Below, in pieces: positions 3,501 through 57,343 of a stretch of DNA of 64,000 nucleotides (the first letter of the stretch is position 1; each line of letters opens with the position of its first letter). Where the stretch lies: positions 758,666 through 822,665 of the forward strand of contig MU006098.1 of the NCBI GenBank assembly GCA_010093705.1. Direction: 5' to 3'. The position numbers and the translations under genes are program-made. Source of the DNA: Patellaria atrata CBS 101060 (lineage: Eukaryota). A model generated the notes under the pieces. That model saw nothing but the letters and a program-made list of their open reading frames with translations, searched no databases and was not told the origin of the DNA.

Positions 3501-6500
3501 GAGATCATCAATGTTGTGCAATCGTTTGGCTCCGGATAATCGTTCAAGACAATATCAGTACCCGTAAATCCAGCTTCAATCAATCGAGCATCCCAAGCAG
3601 CCTTTGAGATGAACGGGCTTTCTGGTCTTCCGTCATCAGCTCCAAGCCAGTATCCGGGTAATGTTCCAAGCAAGTAACCCGTTACCAGTCTATTTTTAGT
3701 TGTCTCGATTATCAGGAGTCGACCACCGGGTTTGAGAAGCTTGTTACAGTTCTCTAGGGTTTTGGTTATGTTTCGAGTTGCGTGGATTACGTTAGATGCA
3801 AAGACAATATCAAATGACTCTAGCTCAAAACCTTGATCCACTGGATCTTTTTCAATATCCAACAAACGAAAATCAAATCTAGGGCGATCTTTGAATGCTT
3901 CCGCAGCACCGGAGAGGAAAGCGGTCGAAACATCTGTAAACACATACTTCTCATACTTCGCCAGAACATCGTGAGCACCGAGACCTTTAAGCATAGGCCT
4001 TGTCGCGCCTCCAGTGCCTGCACCTAGCTCAAGAATGTTCAGACGAGGCTCTTTGTGAGAGATAAGTTCCATCGTTTTTTGAAGTTTCGCATAGGCGCCA
4101 ACCTGGCCGAATCCTTCGCCATAGATACGTGTGATTAGGTCTTCCTCGACCATCACATCTAGAGCCCCTGTCTCGCCAGTAACAATCTCTTTCATTCTAG
4201 AGTTGAGTTTCGCGACCATAGCAGCTTCGGGAACCTGTGACCCGATCTCCTGAACAATCCTGGATATACGATGGTCTCTTTCATGCGTAGAAAGGAATCC
4301 AGTACCACTGGTAGAGAGATCCTTCGCTTTGTCCTTGAGCCACGCTACGAAGTTTTGCATATAGCCAGGGAGATTTTCCACGTGAAGATCATCCGGGAGG
4401 ATTTGAGAACTGTTCAGAATGGCTAAAGCAGCTACTTCCTCGAGCTTAGAGAAGTAATAGCGCGATTCATCAGCACCTTCAGAGCGAAATAAGGAGATTG
4501 CATTACTGTTACTCAAATGGTCGAAATCCGGTTTCCAAACTAACCTCGAGTAGGGCTGTGGAGTTGTGTCGCTCATCGCGGTGCCAAGGTTCGTCTCGAG
4601 CGAAAAGAAATTTATAGCAGCTTCTAAAAATACGTCTCCATTGTTGTTGATCATCCGTGTGGACGTATGTATGCTTCTGAGGCCTCGGCGTTCTCCATGG
4701 CCAATGGCCGTGACGTTCTCGCAGTCTAGTGTAGTAACTGAAGGCGAAATTAAGAACTTCTCGATGTGAACAGGAAGATAAGGTTTCTTAATGGTATCCG
4801 GGTTGCCTTGATGAGCAGCGACGACGGCAAGTTGAAGACATCCATCGATTGCAGTTGGATGTATCACATAATTTGACTCTTGCATCATCAGACCCTGCGT
4901 AGCGCGAAATGAAATCCTAGCTGATGCATCGAGAGTTTCTGGATTGGACCGTACGTCTTGGAGTGTTGTAAATGCTGGACCATAAGAAAGGCCCACACGA
5001 GACATTGCTTCATACCACAGACGATCATTTGCATCCTGATTAATGCCCGACCGAGTACCTTTGTAGGCGGACATATCGGATGGTGGTCCTCGTGATGCTA
5101 CGTGGCTCACTGAGATGTGCCCAGTGGCGTGCTCGGTCCATTTTCCTGATGTCACAGAGCTTACATTGAACGTAAAATTGAAATCCGAGCCAGAAAAAGA
5201 TTTTAGATCAAAGAGTATTTCGGTCTGTGAGTCGTCGTGAAGGATTATGGCTGAACTGATTTTCATGGTTTCGATTCTGTAAGTAACAGGTTGTGGATGC
5301 ACCGTCTGTCTGGCTGCCTCTACAGCCATTGCGATATAACCTGCAGCTGGAAAAACAATGTCATCACCGACCTATCATATCATTAGTGGAATATGAATGC
5401 ATTCTTGAAATTTAGACTAACCTTATGATCGCGGAGCCATGGGACATCATCAAGATGTAATATGTTCCTCCAGGTAGGTGAGTTTCTAGATGTCCCTAGA
5501 ATCCTACTTCCAAGTAAATCATGCCTTGGACACTGACGAAACCGAAGTTCGGTACTGAGACGGCTTTCATGCCATAGTATGTCTTCGTATACCCACTGGT
5601 AGCTAGGGAGATCGACAACTACTCTACTGTTGCAAATCCCTGGAGCGATACTGTTGTCCTCCACTTCTCCTGAAGTGATACTAGCGATATTGAGATCGTA
5701 TCCAGAAACGAAAAGAGACCCGACGAGGTTAAGCATATTCTCCGCGCCATCTCCATCACGCTTTAAGGTCGAATGATAGACCAATCGCTCCGTAGCAAAG
5801 CCCAGTGATTCCTTGATGTCTTTCATAGAACTACTGAGTGCCGGGTGTGGTCCGATCTCTATTATGTGGTTGATATCTGGATGTGATTTGAGGAGTTCCT
5901 GTGCAGCTTGATCGAATAGAACCGGAGATTCGAGGTTTTGACGCCAATAACTATGTTCAATTCTCGATACCGTGATAAGGCTACCAGTCACAGAAGAATA
6001 CATTCTGACTTCACTGTTCTCGAGGGGGATAGTGTACTCCTCTAACGAAAGTGATTGCTGTAACAACTTGTCATAGTCCTCGCCGGCATCTTTCATCAAT
6101 GGAGAGTGATAGGCGTTACCTGACGTTGCCAACTTTCTGTTGAAGACGCCAGCTCTTGACAGCATACCGCGAGCTTTGTCGATAGCCTCGTCTGTCCCAC
6201 TGAGAGTTACACTTTGAGGGGAATTATGACATGCGATTGCAATGTCATCGATGTTCTCAATAAATGGATTGACGTGATCAGCACCGAGACCAACTGCAAG
6301 CATCGCACCTGGGACGTTTCGTCTGGAAGCTGATATACCCCTCTGGTACGCAATTATAATTGCAGTACTAGCGGAAAGATAACCAGTAGTATAGGCTGCA
6401 GCAATTTCACCTAAACTCTGTAATTAATATGTCTCCTTTTCGCTCAAAAAGGCATCTTCACGTACCGGAGGAATGACCCACTACCGCTTTCGGCATTATT

Positions 6501-9000
6501 CCCCATACTCGAAGGAGGTCTACTATCGCTATCTGGACTGCCGTACACAAAGGTTGCGACAGTTCACTATTATTTATTCTACTAATAGATTTAGGGGCCT
6601 GTAATACTTCCATAATTGTCCATGAAGGAGGGTGTGGGGTAGAAGCAAGTATTCCGTCTAAATACTGAAAAGTTTCTAGTACAGAAGGATATTGCTTCGC
6701 GAGCGAAAGTCCCATCTGCGGCCAATGTGCGCCTTGTCCCGTGAAAATGAACGCCAGAATCGGGTCGGTACCTTTGATAGAACCGGCCTTGAAACGACTT
6801 TGAAAATGCTGGGAAGAATTCGCAGATACCTCCTCCTCGGATATTACTGCAAATGCTCTATTTGAAAATCTACCTCGGCGAGAGCTCAAGGTATAAGCTA
6901 GATTAGACAAGGAATATTCATACAGAACTTCGGAAACAGCTTCTATATTCTTGCGTAATGTAGCTTCATTGTGAGATGAGAAAAGTAGTAAATGTTTTCG
7001 CTTCTGAGGATCCAAAGTAGAAGGACTAAGACGTTTTTCTGAATTTCCGCTTTCGTAATCACTTTTGTAGATAATGCCATCCAGGATGCCGTCCGTAGAA
7101 CCATCCTTCAATTCATCTTCTTGTTTGACTTGATCTACAAGATTCTCTTCTTTGAGATTGGTATTGGAAGACCTATTGCTAATGACTTTATTTATAACAT
7201 GAAAATTTTGACTGCTTTCATTTGAAAGTTCACTAAGATTTTTATAGCCGTTGAGGGAACCATTGCAATCCGTATTTTCAAAAGTAGCAGAATCATATAT
7301 AGATAACGAAAGCCCAGTGACGAGGGGTTGAATACGGAGCGAAGAGTGGCTAGCGAAGTAAGACTCTACAGCGTCGAGGACAGCATGGGCATTAGCTCCT
7401 CCATATCCAAAGGAGTTAATACTTGCTCGTCGATAGGTTGCCCATTCCGGCCAAGGGGAGAGCGCTTGGACGACTTTAAGACTGCCGTTGCAAAGGTTGA
7501 GAGCCGGATTGAGCTTCTTTATACCAATAGTTGCGGGTATTAACCCTTTTTCCAGGCAAAGGACTGTCTTTATGATAGCAGGGATAGCACTAGCTGCTTC
7601 TCCGTGTCCTAAATTGGTTTTTACAGAGCCAAGTAGGAGCGGTTCCTGAGCAGTTCTCTCTTTTGAAAATACACGGCCAATTGCCTCCACTTCGAGAGGA
7701 TCACCAACTGGAGTTCCCGTTCCATGACATTCAAAATAGGCTGTCCGCTCGATAGATAAGTTAGCATTAGCATACGCTTGACGAATACAGCTCTCCTGGT
7801 CATCTTTGCTAGGATGGCTTATGCCCAGACTCCGACCGTTTCTGCTCTCCTAGTAAGTAACTAACAGTTGAATCATTGCGAACGCACTTACGCATTTATC
7901 GCAGTTCCCCGAATTACCGCTCGGATAGGGTCGTTATTTGCTATTGCTGCTGATAAACGCTTGATGTAAAGAGCCCCAACCGCCTCACCGCGGGCATAAC
8001 TATCAGGCGGAAAGAGTTTAGTGTAAATTCATTGGCCAAGCTTCAAGCCCCTTTTCCAGATCCGAGACTCACCCGTCTGCTGACTCATCGAATGTATGGC
8101 AAATGCTTGTCGGTGACAGCACTCCTAACCGTACACTTCCAATTTGCTGTTCCACACCGAATATGAGATTTGTGCCTCCGACTATGGCTGCTTCACAGTC
8201 TCCCGCTTGCAAGCTCTTGCAAGCGAGATGGAGAGCGTACATTGTACTCGAACAAGCGGTATCGATGGTGAAACTAGCCGGAACATGTCAATCTTTCGGA
8301 ACTACTGTCTTCTGTTGTTCTTGCGTGGAAGCCGACGATGTCATATAATAGGAGTCTTAACTCACCTAGGACCTTTCAGATTGAAGACATAGGAAATGCG
8401 GTTACTCAATATGGTTATCCCTCCACCCTAGATCAGCACAGTTAGCTAATATTTTACACTATCAATCAATTAAAGGCTCCCACTGTCATATGATAGGCTG
8501 CTCCGTATTCAACATCTCTAGCTTGCATCTGACCAATGTCCCAGGTAAAGTTACCTATATAGCACGCTGTATTCGATCCGGATAAATCCTCAGGTCTCGC
8601 GCCAGCGGATTCGAAACTTTCGTAGACCGTTTCTAACAGCTTTCGCTGTTGTGGATCCATGCTGGTTGCCTCCAATGGACTTATTCCAAAAAATGAGGGA
8701 TCAAACCCTCGATATGAATCATCATCGCCGAGGAAGTATCCTCCATGAGTATGAATGCTACCCGGTCGATGGGAATCTGGATGGTACCAGGAGCTGACAT
8801 TAAACCTATTCTTAGGGACATCAGATTGAGAAGACTTCTCATTCTCAAGGAGAGTCCAAAGTTTTGAGGGTGATGAAGCATCCCCGGGAAGCCGACATCC
8901 TGCTATCATTAGTCTACACTTGAACGATTAGGCAAACTTTCTCACCCATGCCCACAATAACTATGGGGTCGTTATCCTCCATTGCAGAACCAGTCACCAT
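537..9000 (-). CDS. Highly reducing iterative type I polyketide synthase, KS-AT-DH-cMT-ER0(degenerate)-KR-ACP, about 9 introns
   Basis: Start [26 protein letters not shown] motifs DTACSS (~8247-8265), ECHGTGT and KTNLGH; AT GHSSG and [20 protein letters not shown] and [28 protein letters not shown] and YCAAN; ACP YGLDSM. ORF pieces are joined by GT-AG introns. Confidence 0.97.
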
Positions 9001-9898
9001 ACTGAAGCGAAGGAGGCAGAAGACTTTACGAAAATCCACCGGTTGTCTGGATTAACATGTGTTACCCCGGCGGTGGCTACCTTTGTACCTAATGCTACAC
9101 AAACGACGAATAATTACGTCGGCTGGAAGACAATCTGAATGGCTGTCAGTTCCGCAGGATCGTGCGAGCAGCGTCGCTTTAATTATGCCTCCATAGGAAC
9201 TATCCAGATACTCCTAGTCGGTGATCACTCTCGGTCCAATTCTCGGAAATTTGTCTTTTCATTTGATACCTATTATCTGGATCCGCAAGTTTTTAATACC
9301 CATCATCAAATTGACTTAAAAACTCAACATTTATCCCAGTTCTACTGTTCAGAGCCCAGTCTTGCATCCAATCTTATGTTGAATGTCAAGTACCGAATAG
9401 TGACGCCCGTACAGACTACTCAATAGTACGTACGAAGTCCAGACCGTGTTTCGCTCCGTAGATTCTTCGTTAGAGGCAACTACTTGAGCAACAAGATCTA
9501 GACCGGATCTTGTATGACATGCTTCGTCAACGGGGGCCTTAATATGCTTTAAAATTTCAAAAGCTTGACGTCCCCTACACTACCCTTGCACGAGATCCAG
9601 GGTTTGTCAAGTCACTCTGGTTCTACCATAAAAAAGTTGAGGCAGTTGGAGTCGATCGATCAGATACTCCCCCACGTATCCTCCGCTCTCTCATTCGTCG
9701 CTTATAAGGCAGTTATAGATGTTATTGACGCCACTGGAACTCGTTTTGGGTGCTGCACAAGGTCCGTGCGCTTAGGATCTCCCCACAACAAACAATCCAA
9801 AACATTTATTTAAGGATTGACACCTTCTCAAGAAGCTCACCTGAGCATACCACAGATACACTAACCATAACCTATCTCTTTTTATCATAGATTCAGTT

Positions 9899-11013
9899 AT
9901 GAGCTTCCTTCCAGACCCTCTCCGCATGTTGGTCAAGAGCCCGTTCTTATTCGACTTCACATCCGATGGACCACTCCCTTTTGCTTTGCGTCAGAAGTTC
10001 TTCTGGGGCTGTGTCGAGCTCCCCGGTGAACACTTACTGAAGTCAAAACAGGTATTAATGACTGGAGCAACATCTGGGGTCGGACTTGAGGCTTCAAGAC
10101 AGTTACTCAAGCTTGGCACCAGATTGATAATGGGCATCAGAAACATTAAGAAGGCAGAGAAACTGAAGAAGGATTTGGAGGCTGAGATTACAGGCAGTTC
10201 CATCCAGATACTCCCGGTTGACATGGCCTCTTTTCAATCTATTGATCACTTCATTTCGATCTTGAAAGAAGGAGACATACAGATTGATATTGCCATTCTT
10301 AACGCTGGGTTCTTCTCGAGGGGGAACAGCCCAACTTCAGATGGATATGACCCACTTTTTCAGGTTGTCCAGCCCACATTTAACCCTGACGGGAATACTG
10401 ATTCTACAAGGTCAACTTTCTAAGTACCGCATATTTTTCTATGCTACTGATGCCTATTTTGCGACGGCCATCCGCTGTTAGCCGTGTGGTGTTTATCTCC
10501 TCTGAAGGCCACGCTTGGGCAGATACGTCGTCTACCGAAACCCTTTCATTCGAAGAATTCAAAGGGGTCAGGTCTGAAGATGAGGAAAATAACTATTGTT
10601 TATCCAAGCTCTTCATTGCGCTTTTCGCCCAGCGATTAGCAGAGTATACGAATCCGGATGAACTTGTCGTTGTGACCACAACTCCAGGTTTCTGTGCATC
10701 CAGCTTCTTTCCTGACTCCATGGGTTTACTTACCCGGATCATCAAGGTGATCTCTGCTCGCTCTGTGGAGCGCGGAGGTCGTCTCCACGTTCAAGCTGCT
10801 ATTACAGACGCCTCGATAGCACATGGAGCATATTTCAGGGATGGAACCCCATCAAGGTTGGTTACAAAGCATGCGGTGTATCCGTCTCGCTCTGATTACC
10901 GTGGTAGCTTATCTAGATTCGCCGAAAGTAAAGAGGGCAAGGCCTTGTCGAAGCACTTATGGCAAGAGGTGCAGAACTTCGCAAAGAGTCGAGGCAAGAC
11001 ATTCAACTCATAA
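9899..11013 (+). CDS. Short-chain dehydrogenase/reductase (retinol-DH/WWOX-like), cluster tailoring enzyme
   Basis: TGATSGVG Rossmann motif, ILNAG and catalytic YCLSK. Intron 10364-10410 restores FQ|VNFLS; probable in-frame 51-nt intron at 10857-10907. Confidence 0.92.
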
Positions 11014-11740
11014 TCTGCATTTGGAAAGGATTATTGTGCTCTAGCTCACACAATGCGCTGTCATCTCTCACGAGGGCACTATGTATGCCCAAGGGAATAA
11101 TATGGTCCAGAGCAAGACCCGCACCGATCATCGAACGGCATGCTTTTATAACTATGTCATACATGAGACCGGAATCTCTCTTCCTGAAACTCCCACTTCC
11201 TATAGCAGCGAATCCTTTTGAAGCCCTATCATCCTGACACTTTTCCGTTTTGCCACGATAAGAATAACGCTATCACATATTGTCCTTTCTCTTGACGACT
11301 TCGTCTTCAATGTATCACACCATCTCATATATAACAACACGGCAATTTTGTACATGGATCCTCAGCGCAATATCAGTTTATAAAGCTCATAGGGTCACAC
11401 GGAGAGCTCACTATCCTGTAGTTCCGGGGGCCTAGACCCCAAGTGCGATGACGCATGTAACACAAGATAATCTAACAAGGTCCGGGATGGCTGCATATCG
11501 GGTTACCGGCTTGCTTACATACCCGATTAACTCGGGAAGAACCTTAAGGTGCCACACCTTATTCTTATTTGCACGAGCCTCGTGTGCGGGTTGACACGCA
11601 TCGGAGGTGTAGGTTCGGTAAGATTAGATCTACGCATCAAAACCATCCTAACTTTGTTGTTTATGCGATACGTCCTCAGTCCTCTAATTCCTATCCCTCA
11701 TATCGTCGACTGTCCGGCCAGAATAGCTGTAGAGCAAGAA

Positions 11741-14055
11741 ATGTACGACCTTATAATCATCGGCGCAGGTATCTCCTCTCCGCATTACCCTCTCCAATAA
11801 CCCCTCCTTCACTTCCCCGCTCAACACCCCTCAATTTACTCTGAGCGCCAATTTTTCAAGTATTACTCTCCAAATACAAACATGGCCCTCGAAGCTCTCC
11901 TCACATGTAACGAGTCCAACAATCATGTTTCTTTTCATGATCATTACTCCCCTCTAACGTCTTGGTGACAAGCGTCTGTGAAATGTTACGTCCCAGATAC
12001 CACCCTTAAAGTATACCTGCTCCAAAATATTCATTCAATTGTTACTCCCCCGGAAGGATTAAAATTCACATGTGTCACTAGCCTAAAAACATTATGCTCC
12101 AGAATTATCACTTTTGAGAAGTGTTACTCTCTTACGAACACAATTTCCGCAAAACACTACATTCTTAAACATGATTTTCTCAAATGCCCCCCACTCCCGA
12201 GCCTTTCTCTTCTACTCAGAACCCAAAAACCCTTAATACGCAACTCCTTCTCCCTTCCCTCCACTAACTCTCGACAGGGCCCGCCGGTCTAATAACCGCA
12301 AAAACATATCTCCAGGCCTCTCCCACCGCCAGAGTCCTCCTTCTTGATTCTTCCAACACCCTCGGTGGTACGTGGTCACAAGACCGCCTGTATCCACATC
12401 TCCTCGCAGAGACCCGACATGGGCATTTCGAGTTCTCCGATCTCCGCATGGGGACCGAGGGTGTCAATTCCGACGGAACCGTGAGCGGGGATGCTATACA
12501 TGCGTACCTGGTGCGCTATGCGGAGAAGTTCAATCTTTTGAAAATTTTGAGAAACCAAACGAAGGTCATTCGGGTACAGAGGAAAGAAGGAGGAATGGGA
12601 TGGTATGTCGGGATCGTTCCAGTTAATGAGCAAGGGAAGGAATTAGGCGACGGCGAAGAAGTTCTCCGGGCGGAAAAACTCGTCGTCGCGACGGGAATGA
12701 CGTCGCACCCTTTTATCCCCTCAATCCCAGACTATGGGTTCCGGGGTCAGATAATCCATTCGAAAGAGATGGGCACAGAAACGACGAGGGAGCTACTGCG
12801 CAATGAGAAAATAAAAGCGGTAGTTGTGTACGGCGGCTCTAAATCTGCTTTCGACGCCGTGTACATGCTACTCAAAGCCGGCAAAGGAGTCGAGTGGGTT
12901 ATAAGACACGGAAACGGGACTGCGAATATGACACCCCTCACAATATGGGGGATGCCGACATCTCGTGCCTCTGCCACGCGCATCTGGGGTCTATTCTCCC
13001 CCTCTATCTTCGCAGAGGATAGTTGGTGGAAGCGATGGCTACAATCCAACCTCGTCATAAAGGGATACTGGAGATTCATGACTTACATGGTACAAAGGCC
13101 TGCACAGTACTGGAAAACGGAGAATGGTAGACGGCTAAGACCTGATATGGGATACGACAATTTGTTTTATAGTCCTGCGACCCAGGGGGTCTCAAATCAT
13201 CCCGAGTTCTGGGATATGGTACACAATGAAGAGAATGTCAAAGTGTGGAGAAATAGCATCCTTTCCTACGAAGAAAACAGTGTCATACTAGACAATGGCA
13301 CACAGCTCCCAGCGGAGCTAGTTGTCCTAGCAACCGGCTGGAAAGTCAAACAGAATTTATTCTCCGATCAAGATGCTCAGGCTTTAGGGTTACCTTCAGA
13401 AGCTCGGTTCGACGCGGAGACACGATCCAAATGGAGCAAGCTGAACGGAGACGCAGAAAAAGAGATTCTGCTTGAATATCCATCTCTGAGAGACTCACCA
13501 ACTGGAACCCTAAGTAGAGAAGAGAATGATTATTGTTTATATAGGTATCTCATCCCCTCTTCCTATCTAAACGACGATAGATCGATCGGCTTCATCGGAT
13601 TCTTACGTACAGCATCAAATCCAATGGTGTATGAAGCGCAAGCGTTATGGCTTACGGCGTACCTACTAGGGGTGCTAAATGTACCTTCTCAAGAAAAGAG
13701 AGAACGTGAAGTCGCCCGCTCAAACGCTTGGATGTGGCGACGTTACATGTCGGGCCGAAGAATGCCTTTTGCATTCTTCGATTTTATATCCGTAAGTCGG
13801 TCTTCCGAACCGTTGTCAATGCCAACGTTCCTGACTGGTGAATTTTAGTACGTAGATCTACTCTACAGAGACTTAGGCATCAATACCCGGAGAAAGAGTA
13901 ATATTTTAGCAGAATTATTCGGCCAGTACCAGCCGAGGGACTATCAAGGTGTAGTCGATGAGTGGTTACAGAAAACTCGGAAGGTGGAAAGAGTTCAAAT
14001 GCACAGCAACAAAGCGGGCAATGATCCCATAACCACATTAACAAGATGTACATAG
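11741..14055 (+). CDS. Class B flavin-containing monooxygenase (FMO-like)
   Basis: Exon 1 (11741-11768) MYDLIIIGA spliced over intron 11769-12277 to GPAGLITAK gives GxGxxG. FMO fingerprint FRGQIIHSKEM, second dinucleotide motif GGSKSA, LATGW. Last intron 13792-13848; stop at 14055. Confidence 0.92.
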
Positions 14056-14811
14056 GTCCTTCAAGGGTGGAGTGAGGTGTGGTGCGTATAACAATATAGT
14101 CCCAGACATATGGTGTCGTTCAAAGCTAGGTTGTTCGCGAATAGGAGTGAGAGTAAAGCGGAGCTAACCGAATGTGGAAGTAAATGCAGAAGCGCTCTAT
14201 ATGCGCTGTGTAACTTCAACAATATTGTAAAAAGATGCGTCTGGACTGAACTTTTGGAATTTGCCAGAGTGGCAGTGTGACCATCGTACGTCGTGGTCAT
14301 CAGGATCATGCACATAGATTGGGGGACCTTGGAGAGTCGGGTAGCATTCACGAGGGGAGAATTTCTCCTACGGGACAGAATGTTGCGTCATAAGGGAATC
14401 AGTTCATACTACTACGATAGAAAAATGTCGTCGCTGTTGAAACTGAGGCTCATGGAGAAGTTGCTGGTAGTCAACAGCTTAATCTCAAGAAGCGTTTACT
14501 CTAGATAGTTGACGAACTGATAAACACTTTTTGCTTACTGTACTCTCGTGACACAGATTGAAGTTTACCATCAGTTTGAAGCACCGATTGTCTTTCCACT
14601 TTCTGTTCTGTTCAGTTTGCTGTTCAGTTCAGCTGTGCTTCCATCTATCCGCTTCCTCGACCACTCCGCCCTCAAATTGCCCTACTGTTACCCCATAGAC
14701 CTCTTAATTGAATCGTGCAAAGGTGCTGCGTGATATCACAGTCCGAACTATCTCAGGTCATACCAGTCTATATTCAGTAATACAATATCAATTCAACATT
14801 GTGCATCTCCA

Positions 14812-15858
14812 ATGAAGGCCATTGTATCAACCGAGCCAAACACCGCCTCCCTCATCAACAACCGTCCACTCCCTCGCCTCAGAGACGACTACATCCTCGT
14901 GAAAGTCAAAGCCGTCGCGCTAAACCCTACAGACTGGAAACACATCGATCTAACCACAACATCAGGAATCCTCTACGGCTGCGACTACGCCGGCGTGGTA
15001 GAAGATATCGGAACAGGAATGACAAAGGACTTCCGCAAAGGCGACCGAGTATTCGGCTTCGTGCACGGCGGAAACAGCGCCGAGCCAGAAGATGGCGCCT
15101 TTGCGGAATACATCGTGGCGAAAGGAGATCTGCAGATGCGTATTCCAGACGGCATGAGTTTCGAAGAAGCGGCGGCATTTAGAGTCAGAGTCACGAGTGT
15201 AAGCCAGGGATTATATCAAACGTTGGGGTTACCTCTCCCGGATGATGGAAGGAGGACTACGGAGTCAGAGATACCGATTCTGGTTTATGGGGGGTCCACC
15301 GCTTCGGGGATTCTAGGGATCCAGTTCGCACGATTATCTGGATATGCACCGATTGTCACTTGTTCTCCGCATAATTTCGAGTTGGTTAAAGAGTATGGCG
15401 CTGTGGCAACCTTTGACTATGGAGACGATGACGCCGCTGAAGAAATACGGGAGTATACTAATGGGAAACTAAAGCTTATTTGGGATACCGTCTCTATATC
15501 TTGGAGCGCTGAGTTTTGCGCCAGTGTTATGTCCCCGGAAGGGGGGAAGTACGCCTCTCTCTTGCCCATGCGAATAAGCGCGGAGAATGTGGAGAGTACA
15601 ACGACGATGGCGTATACAGTATTTGGCGAGGACTGGAAGATGGGTTCGATGTTCTTCCCAGCGAAGAAGGAGAATTTCGAGTTTGGGAAAACGTGGTTTG
15701 CTTTGGTAGAGGATTTGATTAGCAAAGGAAGGATCGGACCGCATCGAATTGGCGTAGGGGAAAAAGGACTGGAGGGGGTGTTAGATGGGCTGCAACTGCT
15801 TAGAGATTCGAAGGTCAGCGGAAAGAAATTGGTTTATAGGATTGAGGACACTCCGTAA
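14812..15858 (+). CDS. Trans-acting enoyl reductase (LovC-like MDR family)
   Basis: Intronless 348 aa with [44 protein letters not shown] and VSGKKLVY, typical of PKS-partner trans-ERs. Confidence 0.93.
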
Positions 15859-40000: not shown

Positions 40001-40900
40001 TCACCACCCTCTACATGACCCTTTGGGAATACTAGTTCGTTCAGGAACTCCATATTCCAGGTCTCTTTAATCATCTGGATACACAAGACCATAATGATGT
40101 ACAATTAGAAACGAGCCTAGAGCAAACTGGGTGCAGATACCCCCAGATTACAAACCACGTCGTCTTTCCAATATGCTCCACCTCTCATGACCATGAGCTT
40201 TGAGCTTAGCTGTTATACAGTGTTTTAATTGTCTCCGACAAGAGCATACAGATTGACCAGATAGTATGGTACAACTTATCATTTTGTAGACAACTGAATG
40301 TGTAAAGAAAGGTGAACTGGTAGTGTTTACGAGATCATAGTAACCCGTCGTACATAAAGCAGATATAAATGATACTTCAATGCCAACCATGAAATGGAGA
40401 GAAGAGTATGATGCCGTTCTCTGAACGTTTATGAGATGGAAGAACGTGCTCGTTATGATTCATGCCAACGACTGGCATATTTTAATTAAGCATGCAGAAA
40501 GGGTTGAAAATTGAGAAGGTGGACTATTTGGCTAAGTGTGGAAGAGGTGTGGTTAGGAGTTCCGGATTTTCAGGAGGGCGAGATTGGCGAAATAAAGTAG
40601 TGGAAGGCAATAAGAGATGCCCTCCCATAATTAGAACTATTACAGCGCCGCCCACTATAACAGACGTGTCCTATGCAATACAGATTAAACCAAGCCTTAC
40701 AAAATAACACACGCGCAACAAGGATCAAGTTCACTAATGGACGCCTCACCTACTTCCACTCAAGCAGCGGTAACATAACGCACACATAGTACCTCAACAC
40801 AGTTGAAATGATACGCCATGCTCAGGTGATCTCCCAATCCTTCCACTTCTCCATAAAGAGGCAATATCCGTCATCGAACCCTCTAGGACAAGAGTCTTGA

Positions 40901-43900
40901 CTAAGGAATCCCCACGCCGCCAGCAGTGACCGTCACAGTCAGAGCGTCTGAGCACGGCGTGTTCGCCGAAGTTGACGGCCTGCTTGTTATCGTGCTTGTA
41001 ATGAAAGTTGAAGTTACCGTGGTAGCTTGAATGTCTGATTAGTTGAGATACATAGGATAAGGATTGAAAGCGGAGTAAAGTCCGCAAGGGTGCACTCACA
41101 GGTAGGGATTGGAGTCGATGTCACTGTCGTCATAGTGGCTAGATTTACATATTAGTAAAGCTCGTTTAAGAGGAATAGGCCAAAGAGCAGTCAAGTCCTC
41201 CCATAAGAAAGACTGGACAGGATTTCCCACGTTATAACGTGGCCCATCACTGTACGCTCGCTTTCAAAGTGTCCCCCGACTCTCCTGCATACGACTGTCA
41301 ATAACGTATAGCTGCGGCCTAGTCATACATACGTCTTGACTGTACAGACATTTGGAGGCCATCCGCGATCAGGAGCTAAGAATCTGCGAACAACCGTCCA
41401 ACAAGCGTATAGTGGCTGGGGCGTTGCTAACAGCAATAAAGGGGTATCAAAAGTTTACTCACTAGTTGGGAAAGGAGTTGAAGTAACTGTGGTCGTAGTA
41501 GCTAAGTTTATGCATTAGCTTGCTCTCTAGGGGACTAATTTTCTAGTCGGCTATCGGTCTGAGTAATGAAAGATACTTACTTGTTGGGATAGGAGTAGAG
41601 GTGATTGTAGTAGTAGTGGCTAGGTTCACGCATTAGCCTCTTCTCCCCAGCATAGATAACATAAAGCGAGTGTATCTTTCGTGAGAAACAAAGTCCACAA
41701 GGATTCACGTACTGGTAGGAATAGGAGTTGAGGTAATGGTACTTGTGGAATAGATAACCGAAGTGCTGCTGGAGTTTGAACTCGAGCCAAAGCCTGAACC
41801 TGTATCTGATGTTGAACTGAAGGCAGAGGTTGAACTCGAAGCTGCTGCTGAGCTCGAAGTGGAGCTTGACGAGGAACTGGTCACGGAGGTCACTGTCGTG
41901 GAGTGTGTACGCTCGGACAAGGGAACAGCGATTGTTTGTGTGATCGTAACAGCCCCTAAAGAAAATTGTTAGTGATTTGGAAAGAGGAGAAGCATGTCTC
42001 GAGATTTGAGATCATACCGACTACAGTTACTGTAGCTGGCGGTGGAGTTTGGGTTACGGCGGGTCCGGGAACGGTCTGGGTGACAGCCCCTCCGGGTACG
42101 GTTAAAGTGACGGAGCCGCCGGGTACAGTGATGGTGGCAGCTGCTGGAGTTTGGGTTATAGCCGGTCCTGGGATTGTTATGGTGACAGAGCCGGCCGGAA
42201 TTGTCACGGTAGCCGCCGCGGGGGTCTGGGTCACGGCGGGTCCCGGGACAGTAACAGTAATGGAACCGGCAGGAATGGTAAGGGTAGCGGCTGCCAGCGT
42301 TTGGGTCACAACCGGCCCGGGAACTGTCTGGGTGACTGGGAAAGTCTGGGTTACGGGTTGACCCGGTACGGTCACAGTAATAGAGCCGCCGGCAAGAGTT
42401 TGGGTGATAGGTTGACCAGGAACAGTTTGAGTTATGGGTTGACCTATTGAGAGGTTGGCAAGGCGTTAGGACAAGCTTATTGGCACAAAATTCTCACCTT
42501 GAACTGTCTGTGTTTCAGCTTGCCCAGGAATTGTGACAGTAACATAGATAATTTGCGGGCCGGCCCCAGAGGTGCTAGAATAAGTAGAAGTAACCGTTGT
42601 CGAAGCTAACGCGGGATTAGTCTAAGGGTTTAGATGGTAGCTCGGGACAAAACTTACTAGTTGTAGCTGGAGAGAGAAGATCATATTAGCGACATTTTCA
42701 TAGGAAGGGTATGAAAAGTCTTAAGCGAGAATGTACTCACTCGTAGCAGGATAGGTTGTAGTTTTTGCTGTTTGAGCTCCATTAGAATTACATTGTTAAA
42801 GATGATATCAGGAAAACTTGCTGGTTGTTGTCGACGCGTAGGTCGTCGCTAGTTAGAATTAGCTTAGACCCAGAGTCTCATTCTCCAATAGCAAACTTAC
42901 TTGTGGTGGTTGGAACATAATTTGTGGCTATAGAAGTCTGATTAGCTTCGTTCTTGGTTGAAGAACTCTCGGAATGCCTTACTAGTGGTTGTAGGCGCAT
43001 ATGCTGTCGCTAAGAGGAAATTAGTCAGGCGTCATCTCCCCTATTCTGGTAGAGAACTTGCTCGTAATGGTTGGAACATAAGTCGTTGCTATAAAAACTT
43101 CATTAGAGTCATTTTTCGTGAAAGAGCTCTCAAGTAAACTTACTTGTCGTTGTGAGGATAAATGTTGTCGCTAAATAGAAGTTAGCCTATATTTCATCCT
43201 TGCTTCTCTGATGAGGAACTTACTCGTAGTTGTTGGGACATAACTCGTGGCTATTATGGTTGATTAGTTCTGTTTCTAGATTAGGAAGGGACAAACTTAC
43301 TGGTTGTTGTAGGGATAAATGTTGTCGCTGAGTAGAAATTAGCATAGATTTTTGACTCTCATTCTTCTACAGGGAACTTGCTCGTAGCGGTTGTATTGTA
43401 CGTGGTCGCTTCAAGCAAGAAGTCAGCCTTATCCTTTATTCAGGGAATTGAGAGGGACAAACTTGTAGCTATCGGAGAAGTCAGCGAATTTGATCCACCA
43501 AGTGTAATCGTGTAGACGCATGCTGAAAACAAGGGGAGAAGACAGCAATTAGTTTCTATTTTATGGGACGCGTGCTCATCTTGGACTCTACTCACTCGTC
43601 TGAGGATCCGGTGAAAGTCCAGTTGCTAATTCTAGATTTAGCACTCATTACCAAAAACAAGGTTGAAGTAGGACCAACTCGTCGTAGCTAGAATAAATGT
43701 CAACATACCAACACTTCCGTAATTCATACTAAATGTACTAACTTGTTATAGGGTCTGCAGCAGTTGCTTATCCTAAATTTAGCACACATTCTTGAGCAGG
43801 AGTCAAGTAGAACAAACTTGTTGTGGTAGTCGTCGTTGCTTTAGAAGTAGATCAGCTTTCAAATCAGGTGGGATCTATCATAGAAGGAGCCTCACAAGTT

Positions 43901-44550
43901 GTGGTTGTCGGAATTGCCGTAGCTGGATTTCGAAAGTCAGTCTACTTATGTACATCCAAGATTCAAGATCAACGAACTTGTGATTGTCGTAGATGTCGTA
44001 GTTGTTGCTGATATATTCCATTAGTACGTTATATTAATCTACGATGAAGGTTGTCTTCATCATGATGAAGAGGTTAAAAGATGAAAGACCTACTCGTAAA
44101 ACTTGGAATAGCAGCAACCTTGATAAATTTCATCAGGGAGTTGTTGATAGCGTAAGAGCTGGCTGACGTCGGAAACGCCGACTTTTGCTGGCAATTCATC
44201 GCACCAGGTGCGTTTCCGATCTGCCCACCTGCGCACTGGGAACCGCGAAGTGTGCAGTTGCCCGCACACTGTTCGAAATTGAGGCCGGGAAGATCTTGTA
44301 GAGTGCTGTGGCCCGTGATGTTATAACATTCCATATAGTATATCCCTCCCTGGGGTGGTGAGTAGTATTGGCCAGTGAATCCGGGACATGATTGTTGAGT
44401 CGTGACCTGTCTTTTTGCGAGGCTCAACAAGTGATTGTATCGTGCAACCTCTTGATGATATGGTGCTGCAGATACAACCCCGGCACAAAAGAGATACGCA
44501 AGTAAAGTTGGAAGCCAAAACTTCCACAGTGGACTTCGGGCGCCAATCAT
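40901..44550 (-). CDS. Secreted mucin-like protein (~642 aa): signal peptide, Kex2 KR site, six-Cys PAN/apple-like domain, micro-exon-encoded Thr-rich stalk; 25 exons
   Basis: Exons: 44550-44094, 44007-43978, 43922-43896, 43838-43818, 43766-43743, 43687-43679, 43625-43596, 43522-43463, 43408-43382, 43327-43301, 43250-43224, 43170-43144, 43088-43062, 43009-42983, 42927-42901, 42848-42822, 42767-42741, 42666-42658, 42605-42498, 42443-42018, 41955-41713, 41619-41581, 41501-41463, 41138-41100, 41025-40901. Junctions have GT/GC donors and YAG/AAG acceptors, mostly with a CTRAY-like branch site; the spliced frame stays open to TAG at 40901. Confidence 0.85.
42018..42443 (-). repeat. Coding tandem repeat (~24 aa, TVTVPGPAVTQTPAAATVTIPAGS-like) inside one exon
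   Basis: Visible in the translation of ORF 41956..42375. Confidence 0.8.
42741..43408 (-). repeat. Tandem array of nine 27-nt exon plus ~52-nt intron units
   Basis: Exons encode TTTYNTTAT, TTTFIPTTT, TTSYVPTTT, TTTFILTTT, TTTYVPTIT, TTAYAPTTT, TTNYVPTTT, TTTYASTTT and TKTTTYPAT; period 77-82 nt. Confidence 0.85.
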
Positions 44551-45461
44551 CTTGAACTGCAGAACAGAACGAGTGTACACGGTCAGAGGAAATAAAGTTG
44601 AGGGCTAATTGCACGGGATAATAGATGGACTATTTAAAAGGGAGTTCTTTAAACGAATGTATTGCGGACGGGTTAATAGCACGGAGCGAGTGTGGTGTCT
44701 CAAAGAGTGACAAGAGGTTGAACCTACATCTCAAGTGCTCGAAGATCGAGACATGCTTTAAACATATAATTGCAACTGTTGTCGCGCACTAGCGCGCTAG
44801 TTCTAGTGTAGGAAGCTGTTTACATGGTGTACGTGCGTGGAATGTGCAAAGAATGGGAGTGGAACCTCTTCGGGAAAATTTGGAATGGAAAGGAAATTTG
44901 ACTCTTGAACAGAAAAATAGAGAACAGAGATAAGAGTTCCCTCAGTAGTGACAAACAAGCAGAACCTAAAATGGTGTGATATCTTTTTGAACGTCATTAA
45001 TCGTGAAGCGCAAGTACATAATGATAGATACACATCTGTACCTGCTTTCATCTGTCAGTCGCCCAGTATAGGAGGGGAATAATGCGAAATACACGCGCAA
45101 ATATGGCCTATTATAAACAAGGATTCTTATTACTAAACTCCTGCTGCCTTCACTCGGATAGACCTTAGGTCATTACAGTATAAGGATCAACGTCGTGAGT
45201 TACCCAGCTGGCAATGGACGTTGAGCATAGTCAGGATATTATGTCGCGTAGAGCACCGATTGATAGAATCAACTTTCTAGCCCGAACATCACGCAATCAG
45301 GTTTGATCGCCATAGGTATTATTCACACTGGTAGAGCTTGCCGATGTAAGGCGACTACATTGCTTACCAGCCACCAGAGATTGGACCCTTATACTTGGGT
45401 CTCGAATTTGCCAGGAGTACATTCCTGCTTGTTGCTGTAGCAGCCGAATCCGTAAGGGATT

Positions 45462-46518
45462 TTACATTTTTGCTTCCCTGATCTTCATACTGTCTATGCG
45501 GCGACCCTCATCCGCCTGTTCGGCAACTGTCAAGTCTGGAAAACGTGCTGGCATAATTCTCCTTGGTGTCGTGCCCGGCACAAGACTATAATGGGAAAAG
45601 TCCCGCACGCTAACCTTGCGTAAGAAGTCTTCGTCGAGTTCGAGACAACCGTTAACTTGTTCTGCGGGGGCCTTGAGGATGGCTAGAATCGCATCTGAGA
45701 AGATAGTCTGAACTCTCATATTAGCTTAATGTTCGCAGAAGAGTTTGTGAGGCTCACCGCTTTCCGAAGATCCTTTTGGATGGCTGGATCAGCGGTTGCA
45801 GCAGACTGGATTGCAACGGCGGGCCAGATGCTGGTAATCGCCATGCCAGTTCTATTATCGCGCTCAAAATCCATACCGAGACCTTTAGTAAGTACAGACA
45901 TGCCCACCTTACCAATAGCGTACGCAGTCTTTCCTCTGAAGAACCTTGAATATATTGGCGGACTAACGACCACAATCCTACCTTTCCACTCATTCCTCCT
46001 CCACCACTTCAAACAGTTTTGCACAGTGGCGTAAAGTCCCTCTACATTGACCTTTTGCATAAGGTGAAATCTTTTCATCGGTGTGCTCTCCACAGATGCC
46101 CACCAGATCGCCCCAGAATTATACACAAGCACGTCCAGTCCGCCGTAAGTCTCAATTGTCTTCTGCACCATGCGTTCGATGCTGTCGGGATCTCGAACGT
46201 CGACCTGGACGGCAGTGGCTTCGTCACCGGCTTCGTGAATCTCGCGTGCGACGGTGGTGATGGTGGAATGTGAGGAATTGGGGTCTGGAGGAAAGGGATG
46301 GAAATGGTCAGTTTGAGAGGAGGTGGATTTTGCGGCTACGACAACTAGAGAATTGTTAGATATAGTATTATATCATTGAAGATAAAAGGTTTGAAATGCG
46401 AGCAATGTGAAGGAGTATACATACCCGCATACCCATCCTTTGCGAGATCAACCGCGACTTGCCTTCCTATGCCTCTTGACGCGCCAACAACTAGAGCAAC
46501 GCGTTTCTTTTCAGTCAT
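45462..46518 (-). CDS. HSDL2-like short-chain dehydrogenase, C-terminus AKM (PTS1-like)
   Basis: VVGASRGIG, VVAAKS, VYNSGAIWW, SPPIYSRFFRGKTAYAIGK (YxxxK) and SIWPAVAI; two introns. Confidence 0.88.
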
Positions 46519-56600: not shown

Positions 56601-57256
56601 CTGATGACTACTCTAGCTCTAGGTGAATCGTCAAGCCTCGGGGTTCTCAGCGCGACTGGGAACGATGGAGTGGATAGAAAAAGAAGAAGAAGAAACATGT
56701 GGCTCAAGAAAGTCTTTATTGCCGCAGCTCGGCAGCTGATGAGTCATACGACAAACGACAACCGCCTTGACTCCGAGCAGTGGGGTTGCCGTAGCAACCA
56801 AGTCAGGTGCGCAGCAAGACAGATAGAACCGCCCCTAAGTACTGCGGAGTATAGTACTCATGATGCTATGATCTCCTACATCAGTATATCAATCTGAGTA
56901 GGGGAATACCTTTCCGGTCTTGGGATTACTATTCTCGAATTCTTTCCGAGTATTGCATTGAAACGTTATCTAGTCTCCACAAGATTCTCCACGCCAAAAT
57001 CTCGTGCAAATTAGATAAACAGGGTTTGTAACACATAGATTCTTGAAAACTGATCGTGGAAGCCGTCTCGAATAGTTTGGGGGTTCAAGGGCGTTATTGC
57101 GGGCGAAAGGTTATTTTTCGTTTGAAGTTTCTATCAATTCCTCCTTGTACTGGCCAAACACTTGTTGTACCAGAAGTATTGCTGCGATAACAGCCGAAGC
57201 TCATATCGGACTTAGTCATTCATCCTTAACATCAGAGTAAAGGGGGATACAAGATG

Positions 57257-57343
57257 ACTGAACTGTACAAGACTTACTGAACTGTACAAGGCTTACTGAA
57301 CTGTACAAAACCGGACAGTACAAGATCTACTGGACTATACAAG
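57257..57343. repeat. 19-nt minisatellite ACTGAACTGTACAAGRCTT, three copies plus two degenerate copies
   Basis: ACTGAACTGTACAA at 57257, 57276 and 57295; degenerate units near 57310 and 57329. Confidence 0.8.

What the first reader, a model, noticed from the sequence alone, without database searches (positions are those of the whole stretch)
42741..43408. Nine consecutive 27-nt exons at ~80-nt period: tandem duplication of an exon+intron unit
Seen: nine exons of exactly 27 nt with consensus TTx[YF]xPTTT, separated by 50-55-nt introns, most starting G[TC]AAGTT and ending CTAAY...YAG. Inference: the repeat unit is the exon plus its intron, a route to rapid intron gain. Exon length and splice signals are conserved while intron interiors diverge, which suggests selection on frame and splicing.
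Basis: partly seen in the sequence, partly recalled or inferred. Interest (0 to 1): 0.7.

Follow-up and report, generated by a model that had tools for sequence, protein, structure and literature searches.

The report
Fungal mucin stalk from duplicated microexons
A fungal gene for a probably secreted, threonine-rich protein builds its stalk from a run of tiny 27-base exons that multiplied, together with their introns, as a two-exon block; the route is known from one other fungus, but this is an unusually large and old case, and no RNA yet proves the splicing.

Summary
Observation confirmed on the minus strand: nine 27-nt exons (43408-42741) are separated by eight 50-55-nt introns. They belong to a modelled gene (44550-40901) with 25 exons and 24 introns, all in phase 1. 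It encodes a 642-aa protein: signal peptide, PAN/apple-like Cys domain, Thr-rich stalk. The array is unique in the genome and is not an assembly artefact. Duplication of exon plus intron is supported, but the later unit was a ~160-nt dimer. Odd and even units separate in synonymous sites, intron cores, branch-to-acceptor spacing and a tree (93/97). dN/dS of about 0.25 indicates translation. Intron-core similarity is modest (about p 0.05 under the stricter test). Intron gain by repeat expansion is already published (Cryptococcus CNN00420, PMC2395259). A metagenome contig of another, non-ascomycete-like eukaryote (L010) has a younger array of the same design, which suggests convergence. No RNA and no orthologue were available, so splicing and exon skipping are unproven. 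The scan's earlier notes hold repeated-intron microexon genes in other DNA (shark, protist), none Thr-rich or fungal. Verdict: new variant of a known kind, interest 0.45.

The parts
40901..44550 (-). Whole modelled gene: 25 exons, 24 introns all in phase 1, 642 aa, 30% Thr
   Evidence: model from sequence alone, no RNA
44094..44550 (-). Exon 1 (457 nt): hydrophobic signal-peptide-like N-terminus and a six-Cys PAN/apple-like domain (about aa 55-120)
   Evidence: hydropathy and Cys positions; phmmer E 2e-7 to P0001, aligned over the PAN_4 repeat of P0001; ESM features 0.86, lead only; no direct Pfam hit
43463..44007 (-). Exons 2-8 (30, 27, 21, 24, 9, 30, 60 nt): more degenerate Thr-rich microexons with weaker splice signals; introns 4 and 6 are 70% alike
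   Evidence: less certain than the core array
43382..43408 (-). Exon 9, 27 nt, odd type, followed by a GC-donor intron
43301..43327 (-). Exon 10, 27 nt, even type
43224..43250 (-). Exon 11, 27 nt, odd type
43144..43170 (-). Exon 12, 27 nt, even type (23 of 27 nt identical to exon 10)
43062..43088 (-). Exon 13, 27 nt, odd type (22 of 27 nt identical to exon 11), followed by a GC-donor intron
42983..43009 (-). Exon 14, 27 nt, even type
42901..42927 (-). Exon 15, 27 nt, odd type
42822..42848 (-). Exon 16, 27 nt, even type, followed by a GC-donor intron
42741..42767 (-). Exon 17, 27 nt, out of register with the other eight
42768..43462 (-). Introns 8-16 (50-55 nt) in two alternating types: branch-to-YAG spacer 6-7 nt in odd introns, 9-10 nt in even introns
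42658..42666 (-). Exon 18, 9 nt; the intron after it resembles intron 10 (67%)
42018..42605 (-). Exons 19-20: intron-free V/I/T/P/G-rich coding repeats (75-nt period), an expansion without introns in the same gene
41100..41751 (-). Second, separate exon+intron array: three 39-nt exons (41619-41581, 41501-41463, 41138-41100) plus a matching 39-nt end of exon 21
   Evidence: 23-30 of 39 nt identical among the four copies; cores of introns 21 and 24 Z 4.2
40901..41025 (-). Last exon with one Cys and a mildly hydrophobic end; no clear GPI signal in this model
   Evidence: hydropathy only; no GPI predictor run

Best explanation
This is a constitutively spliced gene for a secreted or cell-surface adhesin- or mucin-like glycoprotein, whose Thr-rich stalk grew by tandem DNA duplication of intron-containing units. 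An intron sat after the first base of a Thr codon in the stalk (20 of 24 junctions are A|C). Each exon is a multiple of 3 and each intron is phase 1, so any gain or loss of whole units by slippage, unequal crossing-over or gene conversion keeps the frame. An ~80-nt exon+intron unit doubled and the two copies diverged into two types; the ~160-nt pair was then amplified about four times. The array has since been quiet long enough for intron interiors and synonymous sites to drift (dS about 0.9), while selection kept exon length, Thr content, the central aromatic residue and the splice signals. A second unit (39-nt exon) expanded separately near the 3' end. SHOWN from sequence: the array, the single phase, the odd/even kinship, dN below dS, uniqueness in the genome. 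INFERRED: splicing, secretion, O-mannosylation, the PAN fold, the order of duplications and the DNA mechanism.
For: All 23 internal exons are 3n and all 24 introns phase 1. Retaining any intron truncates the protein: a stop lies inside 23 of 24 introns, including all eight with 3n length. A|C junctions: 20 of 24 here against 8 of 61 control introns. Parity tests: exon identity and synonymous identity 2 of 70 splits (the best attainable), spacer length 1 of 126, intron cores 6 and 2 of 126. In-register dimers are 61-67% identical, out-of-register 53-59%. Tree of 8 units: odd against even 93/97, 13 of 500 shuffles as low; introns alone 67/87, 4-5 of 500. Intron pairs 12/14 and 9/15 reach Z 4.3 and 4.2; Z of 3.5 or more occurs in 2 of 36 array pairs against 0.3-0.5% of about 1430 control pairs. 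L010 shows the same design with introns of two types that are 78-94% alike within type. Precedent: PMC2395259 section 10.
Against: No RNA-level confirmation and no orthologue. Mean intron-core similarity is only borderline once 8 donor bases are removed (mean Z 0.45; 14 of 300 control sets as high; 34 of 300 by count of high pairs). Spacer sequence shows no parity (79 of 126). The parity was noticed in the data before it was tested, and the tree branch misses the tool's 95/80 mark. Some similar pairs cross parity (8/13 and 11/16, Z 2.6). Three GC donors with A at -1 and five 5' introns with T at donor position +3 are weak signals. Exon 8 has a second, in-frame acceptor.
Confidence: 0.72

Rival explanations
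1. Same origin, but the array is kept as a splicing device: symmetric microexons are skipped in combinations to vary stalk length and glycosylation, like a schistosome micro-exon gene (MEG).
For: Any subset of the 23 internal exons can be skipped in frame. Three of the 9 array introns have GC donors, whereas a strict GC-donor pattern is no commoner than chance in 659 kb (7 against 8-14 in shuffles). Exon 8 has an alternative in-frame acceptor at 43469. The product is probably secreted.
Against: Introns of 50-55 nt favour intron definition, and exon skipping is rare in ascomycetes (recalled, not tested). Symmetry follows from duplication alone. The gene is single-copy, not a family like the MEGs.
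Confidence: 0.15
2. The coding repeat expanded first without introns, and introns were then inserted one by one at equivalent Thr codons (introner-like elements, reverse splicing or transfer between repeats).
For: The same gene has an intron-free repeat block. Most intron pairs are no more alike than controls. Introner-like elements exist in some fungi (PMC3609843, search listing only).
Against: Intron type and exon type alternate together, which insertion into a finished repeat does not predict. The array has no copy elsewhere in the genome. The introns are of ordinary length (control range 45-66 nt).
Confidence: 0.08
3. The array is a decayed genomic tandem repeat inside one long intron or behind a short gene (exon 1 read on to its stop at about 44074), and the 'exons' are not translated.
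For: No RNA; no database protein holds the domain or the stalk; exon 1 alone gives a complete reading frame of about 158 aa if unspliced.
Against: Codon-position asymmetry (0.26 against 0.71) and dN/dS about 0.25. Exon length stays at exactly 27 while introns vary from 50 to 55. Branch and acceptor are intact in 8 of 8. One frame stays open through 24 junctions.
Confidence: 0.05

Closest known systems
Cryptococcus neoformans CNN00420 (Sharpton et al. 2008, PMC2395259; passages and section 10 read)
   Same: Single-copy fungal gene whose introns multiplied with ~107-nt repeats holding exon ends plus a whole intron; the authors ascribe it to slippage, unequal crossing-over or gene conversion.
   Different: There: six introns, near-identical, polymorphic among strains, EST-supported. 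Here: 24 introns, two separate arrays, a dimeric higher-order unit, old diverged copies, an ascomycete Thr-rich stalk, and no RNA or population data.
Schistosoma micro-exon genes, MEG (PMC10526429; start of abstract and passages seen)
   Same: Secreted protein with a signal peptide whose coding region is cut into many very short exons (3-81 nt in MEGs).
   Different: MEG introns are long (up to 5 kb), MEGs are multigene families and are alternatively spliced. Here the introns are 50-55 nt, the gene is single-copy, only 20 of 25 exons are under 81 nt (about 30% of the coding length), and isoforms are unknown.
Symmetric-exon repeat genes of animals: collagens, tropoelastin, STP exons of CD46, variable exons of CD45 (recalled; not looked up)
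   Same: Repetitive or O-glycosylated extracellular segments encoded by duplicated same-phase small exons. Phase-1 preference of mobile domains is noted in PMC3488318 (passage).
   Different: Those have long introns and exon definition; here the whole unit is about 80 nt in a short-intron fungal genome.
Fungal adhesin/flocculin architecture (Flo1, Flo11, Als; recalled) and PAN/apple-domain proteins (Pfam PF14295, PF00024 on P0001 and P0003)
   Same: Signal peptide, small Cys domain, long Ser/Thr stalk with tandem repeats, V/I/T-rich repeats.
   Different: The yeast adhesin repeats are intron-free (recalled). No clear GPI signal here, and no sequence match to those families.
Rogers-type tandem genomic duplication and intronization (PMC3443670; passages)
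   Same: Intron number rises through local DNA duplication.
   Different: That route makes a new intron out of duplicated exon sequence at AGGT. Here the junctions are A|C and the introns do not resemble exon sequence. [quoted passage not shown]

Membership tests
Intron gain by expansion of an intron-containing repeat (CNN00420 type) | Repeat unit spans exon sequence plus a whole intron | tested here: met
   Exon type and intron type co-vary with period 2; dimers 61-67% identical
Intron gain by expansion of an intron-containing repeat (CNN00420 type) | Introns of the gene are homologous to each other | tested here: inconclusive
   0 of 300 control sets reach the mean with 6 donor nt removed, 14 of 300 with 8 removed; two pairs at Z above 4; spacer length alternates. 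Leans to met.
Intron gain by expansion of an intron-containing repeat (CNN00420 type) | Unit number differs among strains or orthologues | not testable with these tools
   X1 and X2 are one sample identical to the window; X3 gave four short identical pieces; no orthologue found
Intron gain by expansion of an intron-containing repeat (CNN00420 type) | Splicing shown by transcripts | not testable with these tools
   No RNA holder listed
Schistosoma-type micro-exon gene (MEG) | Secreted, with signal peptide | tested here: inconclusive
   Hydrophobic N-terminus, 15-residue hydropathy up to 1.9; no signal-peptide predictor run
Schistosoma-type micro-exon gene (MEG) | Many short exons, symmetric (symmetry as a MEG trait is recalled) | tested here: met
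   23 of 23 internal exons are 3n; 20 of them are 60 nt or less
Schistosoma-type micro-exon gene (MEG) | Long introns and a multigene family | tested here: not met
   Introns 50-93 nt except one of 324; single copy in G000
Schistosoma-type micro-exon gene (MEG) | Isoform diversity by alternative splicing | not testable with these tools
   No RNA data
Introner-like elements | Many near-identical intron copies in unrelated genes | tested here: not met
   DNA search of G000 with 42700-43450 at E up to 1 finds only itself (such a search can miss short diverged copies)
Rogers-type tandem genomic duplication | AG|GT at both junctions, intron derived from duplicated exon | tested here: not met
   20 of 24 junctions are A|C; only introns 19 and 20 lie in G|G context
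PAN/apple domain | Pfam PAN_1 or PAN_4 match above cut-off | tested here: not met
   0 families at E up to 1 for exon 1
PAN/apple domain | Homology to PAN proteins with aligned cysteines | tested here: met
   phmmer E 2.1e-7 to P0001 and 8.3e-4 to P0003 (the other 2 of 4 hits are unrelated repeats); five Cys align to the P0001 repeat at 174-249
PAN/apple domain | PAN fold | tested here: inconclusive
   Single-sequence model has pLDDT 35 and is unusable

The most novel reading that the evidence does not exclude
Thr-rich stalks built from phase-1 microexons split inside Thr codons are a recurrent, convergent gene design in short-intron eukaryotes (this ascomycete; the unrelated AT-rich eukaryote of L010). 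Such arrays are routinely missed by annotation and act as a two-level length dial: unit number at DNA level and in-frame exon skipping, helped by weak GC donors, at RNA level. This gene would then be a fungal counterpart of the schistosome micro-exon genes.
Probability: 0.15. Interest if true: 0.75.

Novelty: new variant of a known kind. Interest (0 to 1): 0.45.

Why it matters
It is a clean, testable case of local intron multiplication in a fungus: 24 introns in one phase, with a readable history (monomer, then dimer, then a second array). Sharpton et al. expected this route to be more widespread, and Croll and McDonald (PMC3514964, passages; author names recalled) found little sign of it in Fusarium and Cryptococcus. 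The L010 parallel suggests that Thr codons split in phase 1 make mucin stalks prone to this. In practice such genes are likely to be mis-annotated, so fungal surface proteins may be undercounted. If exon skipping were shown, it would be a rare fungal case of combinatorial splicing of a surface protein.

Tried and rejected
RNA: no RNA holder listed. X1 and X2 hold the introns and are probably DNA; X3 gave four 166-196-nt identical pieces at depth 2-3, not interpreted. Orthologues: exon 1 found nothing at E 0.001 among 414 longer candidates or at E 0.01 among 19 near-length candidates. Exon 20 found nothing among 7999 candidates and no usable Atlas hit. The full HMMER search gave 4 weak hits. 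Structure prediction from one sequence failed (pLDDT 35), so no fold search was run. The first control-intron set was discarded: 48 calls against 33-49 in shuffles. It was replaced by a strict set, 61 calls against 6-12 in shuffles, of which 54 cores were used. RIP as the cause of intron divergence: not supported (intron cores TpA/ApT 0.73, (CpA+TpG)/(ApC+GpT) 1.75; transitions 83 of 144 differences). Tandem Repeats Finder does not see the array at score 30. Metagenome pattern scan: 3 of 4 loci (L008, L009, L011) are simple tandem repeats and were dropped; L010 was kept. A genome-wide 39-nt-exon pattern gave 1 match against 7 in the control and missed the gene's own 39-nt exons, so it is uninformative. 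Left out of tests: exon 17 from the exon parity, dN/dS and unit-tree tests (out of register); the 324-nt intron 23 from the similarity matrix. Literature searches with no paper holding all terms. Listings without such a gene, judged by title and abstract start: 15 of 15 listed; 15 of 74; 5 of 5; 15 of 196. Two paper searches failed. The library lacks most subscription journals and no supplements were read, so a published description may exist.

Full report
1. Observation. The feature lies on the minus strand. Reading 44700-40600 and modelling by coordinates gives nine exons of exactly 27 nt between 43408 and 42741, separated by eight introns of 54, 50, 53, 55, 52, 55, 52 and 54 nt. The peptide consensus is looser than stated: 4 of 9 exons match it exactly and the ninth is out of register. 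The array is beyond chance. A relaxed chain scan finds 11 consecutive short introns here, at most 3 in 132 strand-pieces of 659 kb of the same genome, and at most 4 in 200 shuffles. A genome-wide 27-nt-exon pattern hits 10 distinct places, 6 of them in this array. A two-exon Thr pattern hits only this gene (5 of 5 matches). Contigs of X1 and X2 agree with the window over 40800-44700 (they may be its source).

2. The gene. The array is part of a modelled gene from ATG 44550 to stop 40901, with 25 exons and 24 introns. Every intron is in phase 1 and every one of the 23 internal exons is a multiple of 3. At 20 of 24 junctions the intron splits a codon as A|C, which makes a Thr codon; 8 of 61 control introns have that junction. 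The 642-aa product has a hydrophobic N-terminus, a six-Cys domain, a 151-aa stalk with 57% Thr (exons 2-18), an intron-free V/I/T/P/G-rich repeat block (exon 20, 75-nt period), a Ser-rich part, a second array of 39-nt exons, and a short end without a clear GPI signal. The Cys domain has no Pfam hit of its own. It matches PAN-domain proteins P0001 (E 2e-7) and P0003 (E 8e-4), with five Cys aligned; ESM features point the same way at 0.86, a lead only. The fold model was unusable. The gene is single-copy. G000 is a 28.7-Mb genome with ascomycete-type introns. An earlier, unchecked note on this genome (e1-7650504) names the fungus Patellaria atrata. Exons 2-8 have weaker signals and are less certain. 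Exon 8 contains a second branch and acceptor 54 nt downstream, in frame, so it may be 60 or 6 nt long.

3. Are the exons translated? No RNA holder was listed, so this rests on sequence. Among the nine exons, positions 1+2 differ at 0.26 and 4-fold third positions at 0.71. For exons 9-16, same-parity pairs give pS 0.53 and pN 0.19 (dS 0.92, dN 0.23); cross-parity pairs give pS 0.83 and pN 0.21 (pairs are not independent, exon 17 left out). A repeat drifting inside one long intron would not show this asymmetry, nor keep 27 nt exactly while the introns vary in length. Retaining any intron truncates the protein: 23 of 24 hold an in-frame stop, and the last leads to one just after.

4. Were the introns copied with the exons? 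With donor, branch and 3' tail removed, cores of introns 8-16 have a mean alignment Z of 0.76 against 0.11 +/- 0.20 for random 9-sets of 54 control cores (0 of 300 as high). Removing two more bases after the donor lowers this to 0.45 (14 of 300; by count of high pairs 34 of 300). The overall signal is therefore modest, though pairs 12/14 and 9/15 stay strong (Z above 4; Z of 3.5 or more in 2 of 36 array pairs against 0.3-0.5% of control pairs). The clearer signal is period 2. Branch-to-YAG spacers are 7, 7, 7, 6 nt in odd introns and 10, 9, 10, 10, 10 nt in even ones (best of 126 splits). Exon identity and synonymous identity each give the best attainable split (2 of 70), and intron cores 6 and 2 of 126; spacer sequence shows nothing (79 of 126). 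In-register dimers are 61-67% identical and out-of-register ones 53-59%. A tree of eight units splits odd from even at 93/97, and introns alone at 67/87. I noticed the parity before testing it, so the p-values are optimistic, but exon and intron data are separate and agree. Some cross-parity pairs (8/13, 11/16) and the 10/18 pair suggest conversion or a more tangled history. Introns 4 and 6 (70% alike) and the 39-nt array (23-30 of 39 nt identical; introns 21/24 Z 4.2) show that the process happened more than once in this gene. There is no RIP signature.

5. A parallel elsewhere. A scan of the metagenome collection for two consecutive phase-1 Thr microexons gave 4 loci. Three are simple repeats. 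L010 (30% GC, T-rich 3' tracts, no CTRAY branch, so not ascomycete-like; a small-intron animal is my guess) has nine 52-55-nt introns around eight internal exons of 36, 27, 21, 27, 9, 27, 27 and 27 nt, all 3n and Thr-rich. Its introns are of two types, alternating at first, 78-94% alike within type and 59-73% between types. It looks like a young version of the same process. It is one contig with no RNA and no sign of homology to this gene, so convergence is an inference.

6. Mechanism. Most likely (0.72), slippage, unequal crossing-over or conversion amplified an intron-bearing unit in the stalk. Symmetry makes every copy-number change frame-neutral. The monomer diverged into two types and the pair was amplified about four times; selection then kept the peptide and splice signals. 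The short introns are probably removed constitutively by intron definition (established knowledge, recalled). The product is probably an O-mannosylated secreted or wall-bound adhesin-like protein presenting a PAN-like head (inference). Rivals: a skipping device (0.15; three GC donors against no excess of GC donors in 659 kb), separate intron insertions (0.08), and a non-coding repeat (0.05).

7. What is known. Sharpton et al. 2008 (PMC2395259; passages and section 10 read) describe Cryptococcus CNN00420, where ~107-nt repeats holding exon ends and a whole intron added introns. This is the same route, young and EST-supported. PMC3514964 (passages) cites that case and finds little other sign of intron duplication in Fusarium and Cryptococcus. 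PMC3443670 (passages) treats duplication of pre-existing introns apart from true intron creation, and the Rogers AGGT route fails here. PMC3488318 (passage) notes the phase-1 preference of mobile domains. bioRxiv 10.1101/051292 (passages) added nothing specific. Schistosome MEGs (PMC10526429; abstract start and passages) share secretion and tiny exons but have long introns and gene families, so this works partly like a MEG but is not one. PMC12230235 (passages) reports microexons of 15 nt or less in about 9% of Coprinopsis genes and calls fungal microexons barely studied. Collagen, tropoelastin, CD45/CD46 and Flo/Als comparisons are recalled. My searches showed no paper on a fungal Thr-rich stalk made of microexon arrays, within an open-access library only.

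8. Verdict. It needs three corrections: the later unit is a dimer, the array is old, and the route is published. New here are the scale (24 same-phase introns, two arrays), the readable higher-order history and a convergent young case in L010. Without RNA or orthologues the more exciting reading, combinatorial skipping, stays at about 0.15. Novelty: new variant of a known kind. Interest 0.45.

Noticed in passing
L010, minus strand, first ~730 nt of the reverse complement: Young array of Thr-rich phase-1 microexons (9-36 nt) with two alternating types of near-identical 52-55-nt introns in an AT-rich, non-ascomycete-like eukaryote; the contig ends inside the array.
   Followed up: partly
window 43522-43469 (-): 54-nt stop-free, in-frame stretch inside exon 8 that ends in a perfect branch and acceptor: either an alternative 3' splice site or a former intron turned exon; it carries an otherwise unpaired Cys.
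   Followed up: partly
window 43977-43409 (-): Five of the 5' introns (2, 4, 5, 6, 8) have T at donor position +3, and introns 4 and 6 have a non-consensus branch with a too-close first AG; using that AG in intron 4 would create a stop.
   Followed up: partly
window 41462-41139 (-): Intron 23 is 324 nt, about four times its sister introns; it may hold an insertion or a dead exon, and an early AG near 41416 could give another C-terminus.
   Followed up: no
window 537-8927 (-) and 9845-15858: Reducing polyketide synthase-like gene (ketosynthase, methyltransferase and KR-like stretches by eye) beside short-chain dehydrogenase, flavin monooxygenase and trans-enoyl-reductase-like ORFs: a likely secondary-metabolite cluster (labels from recalled motifs).
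   Followed up: no
window 57248-57343: 19-nt tandem repeat, about 5 copies, outside the long ORFs.
   Followed up: no
window 45716-46372 (-): Short-chain dehydrogenase (PF00106, E 4e-22) just upstream of the gene; a useful synteny anchor.
   Followed up: partly
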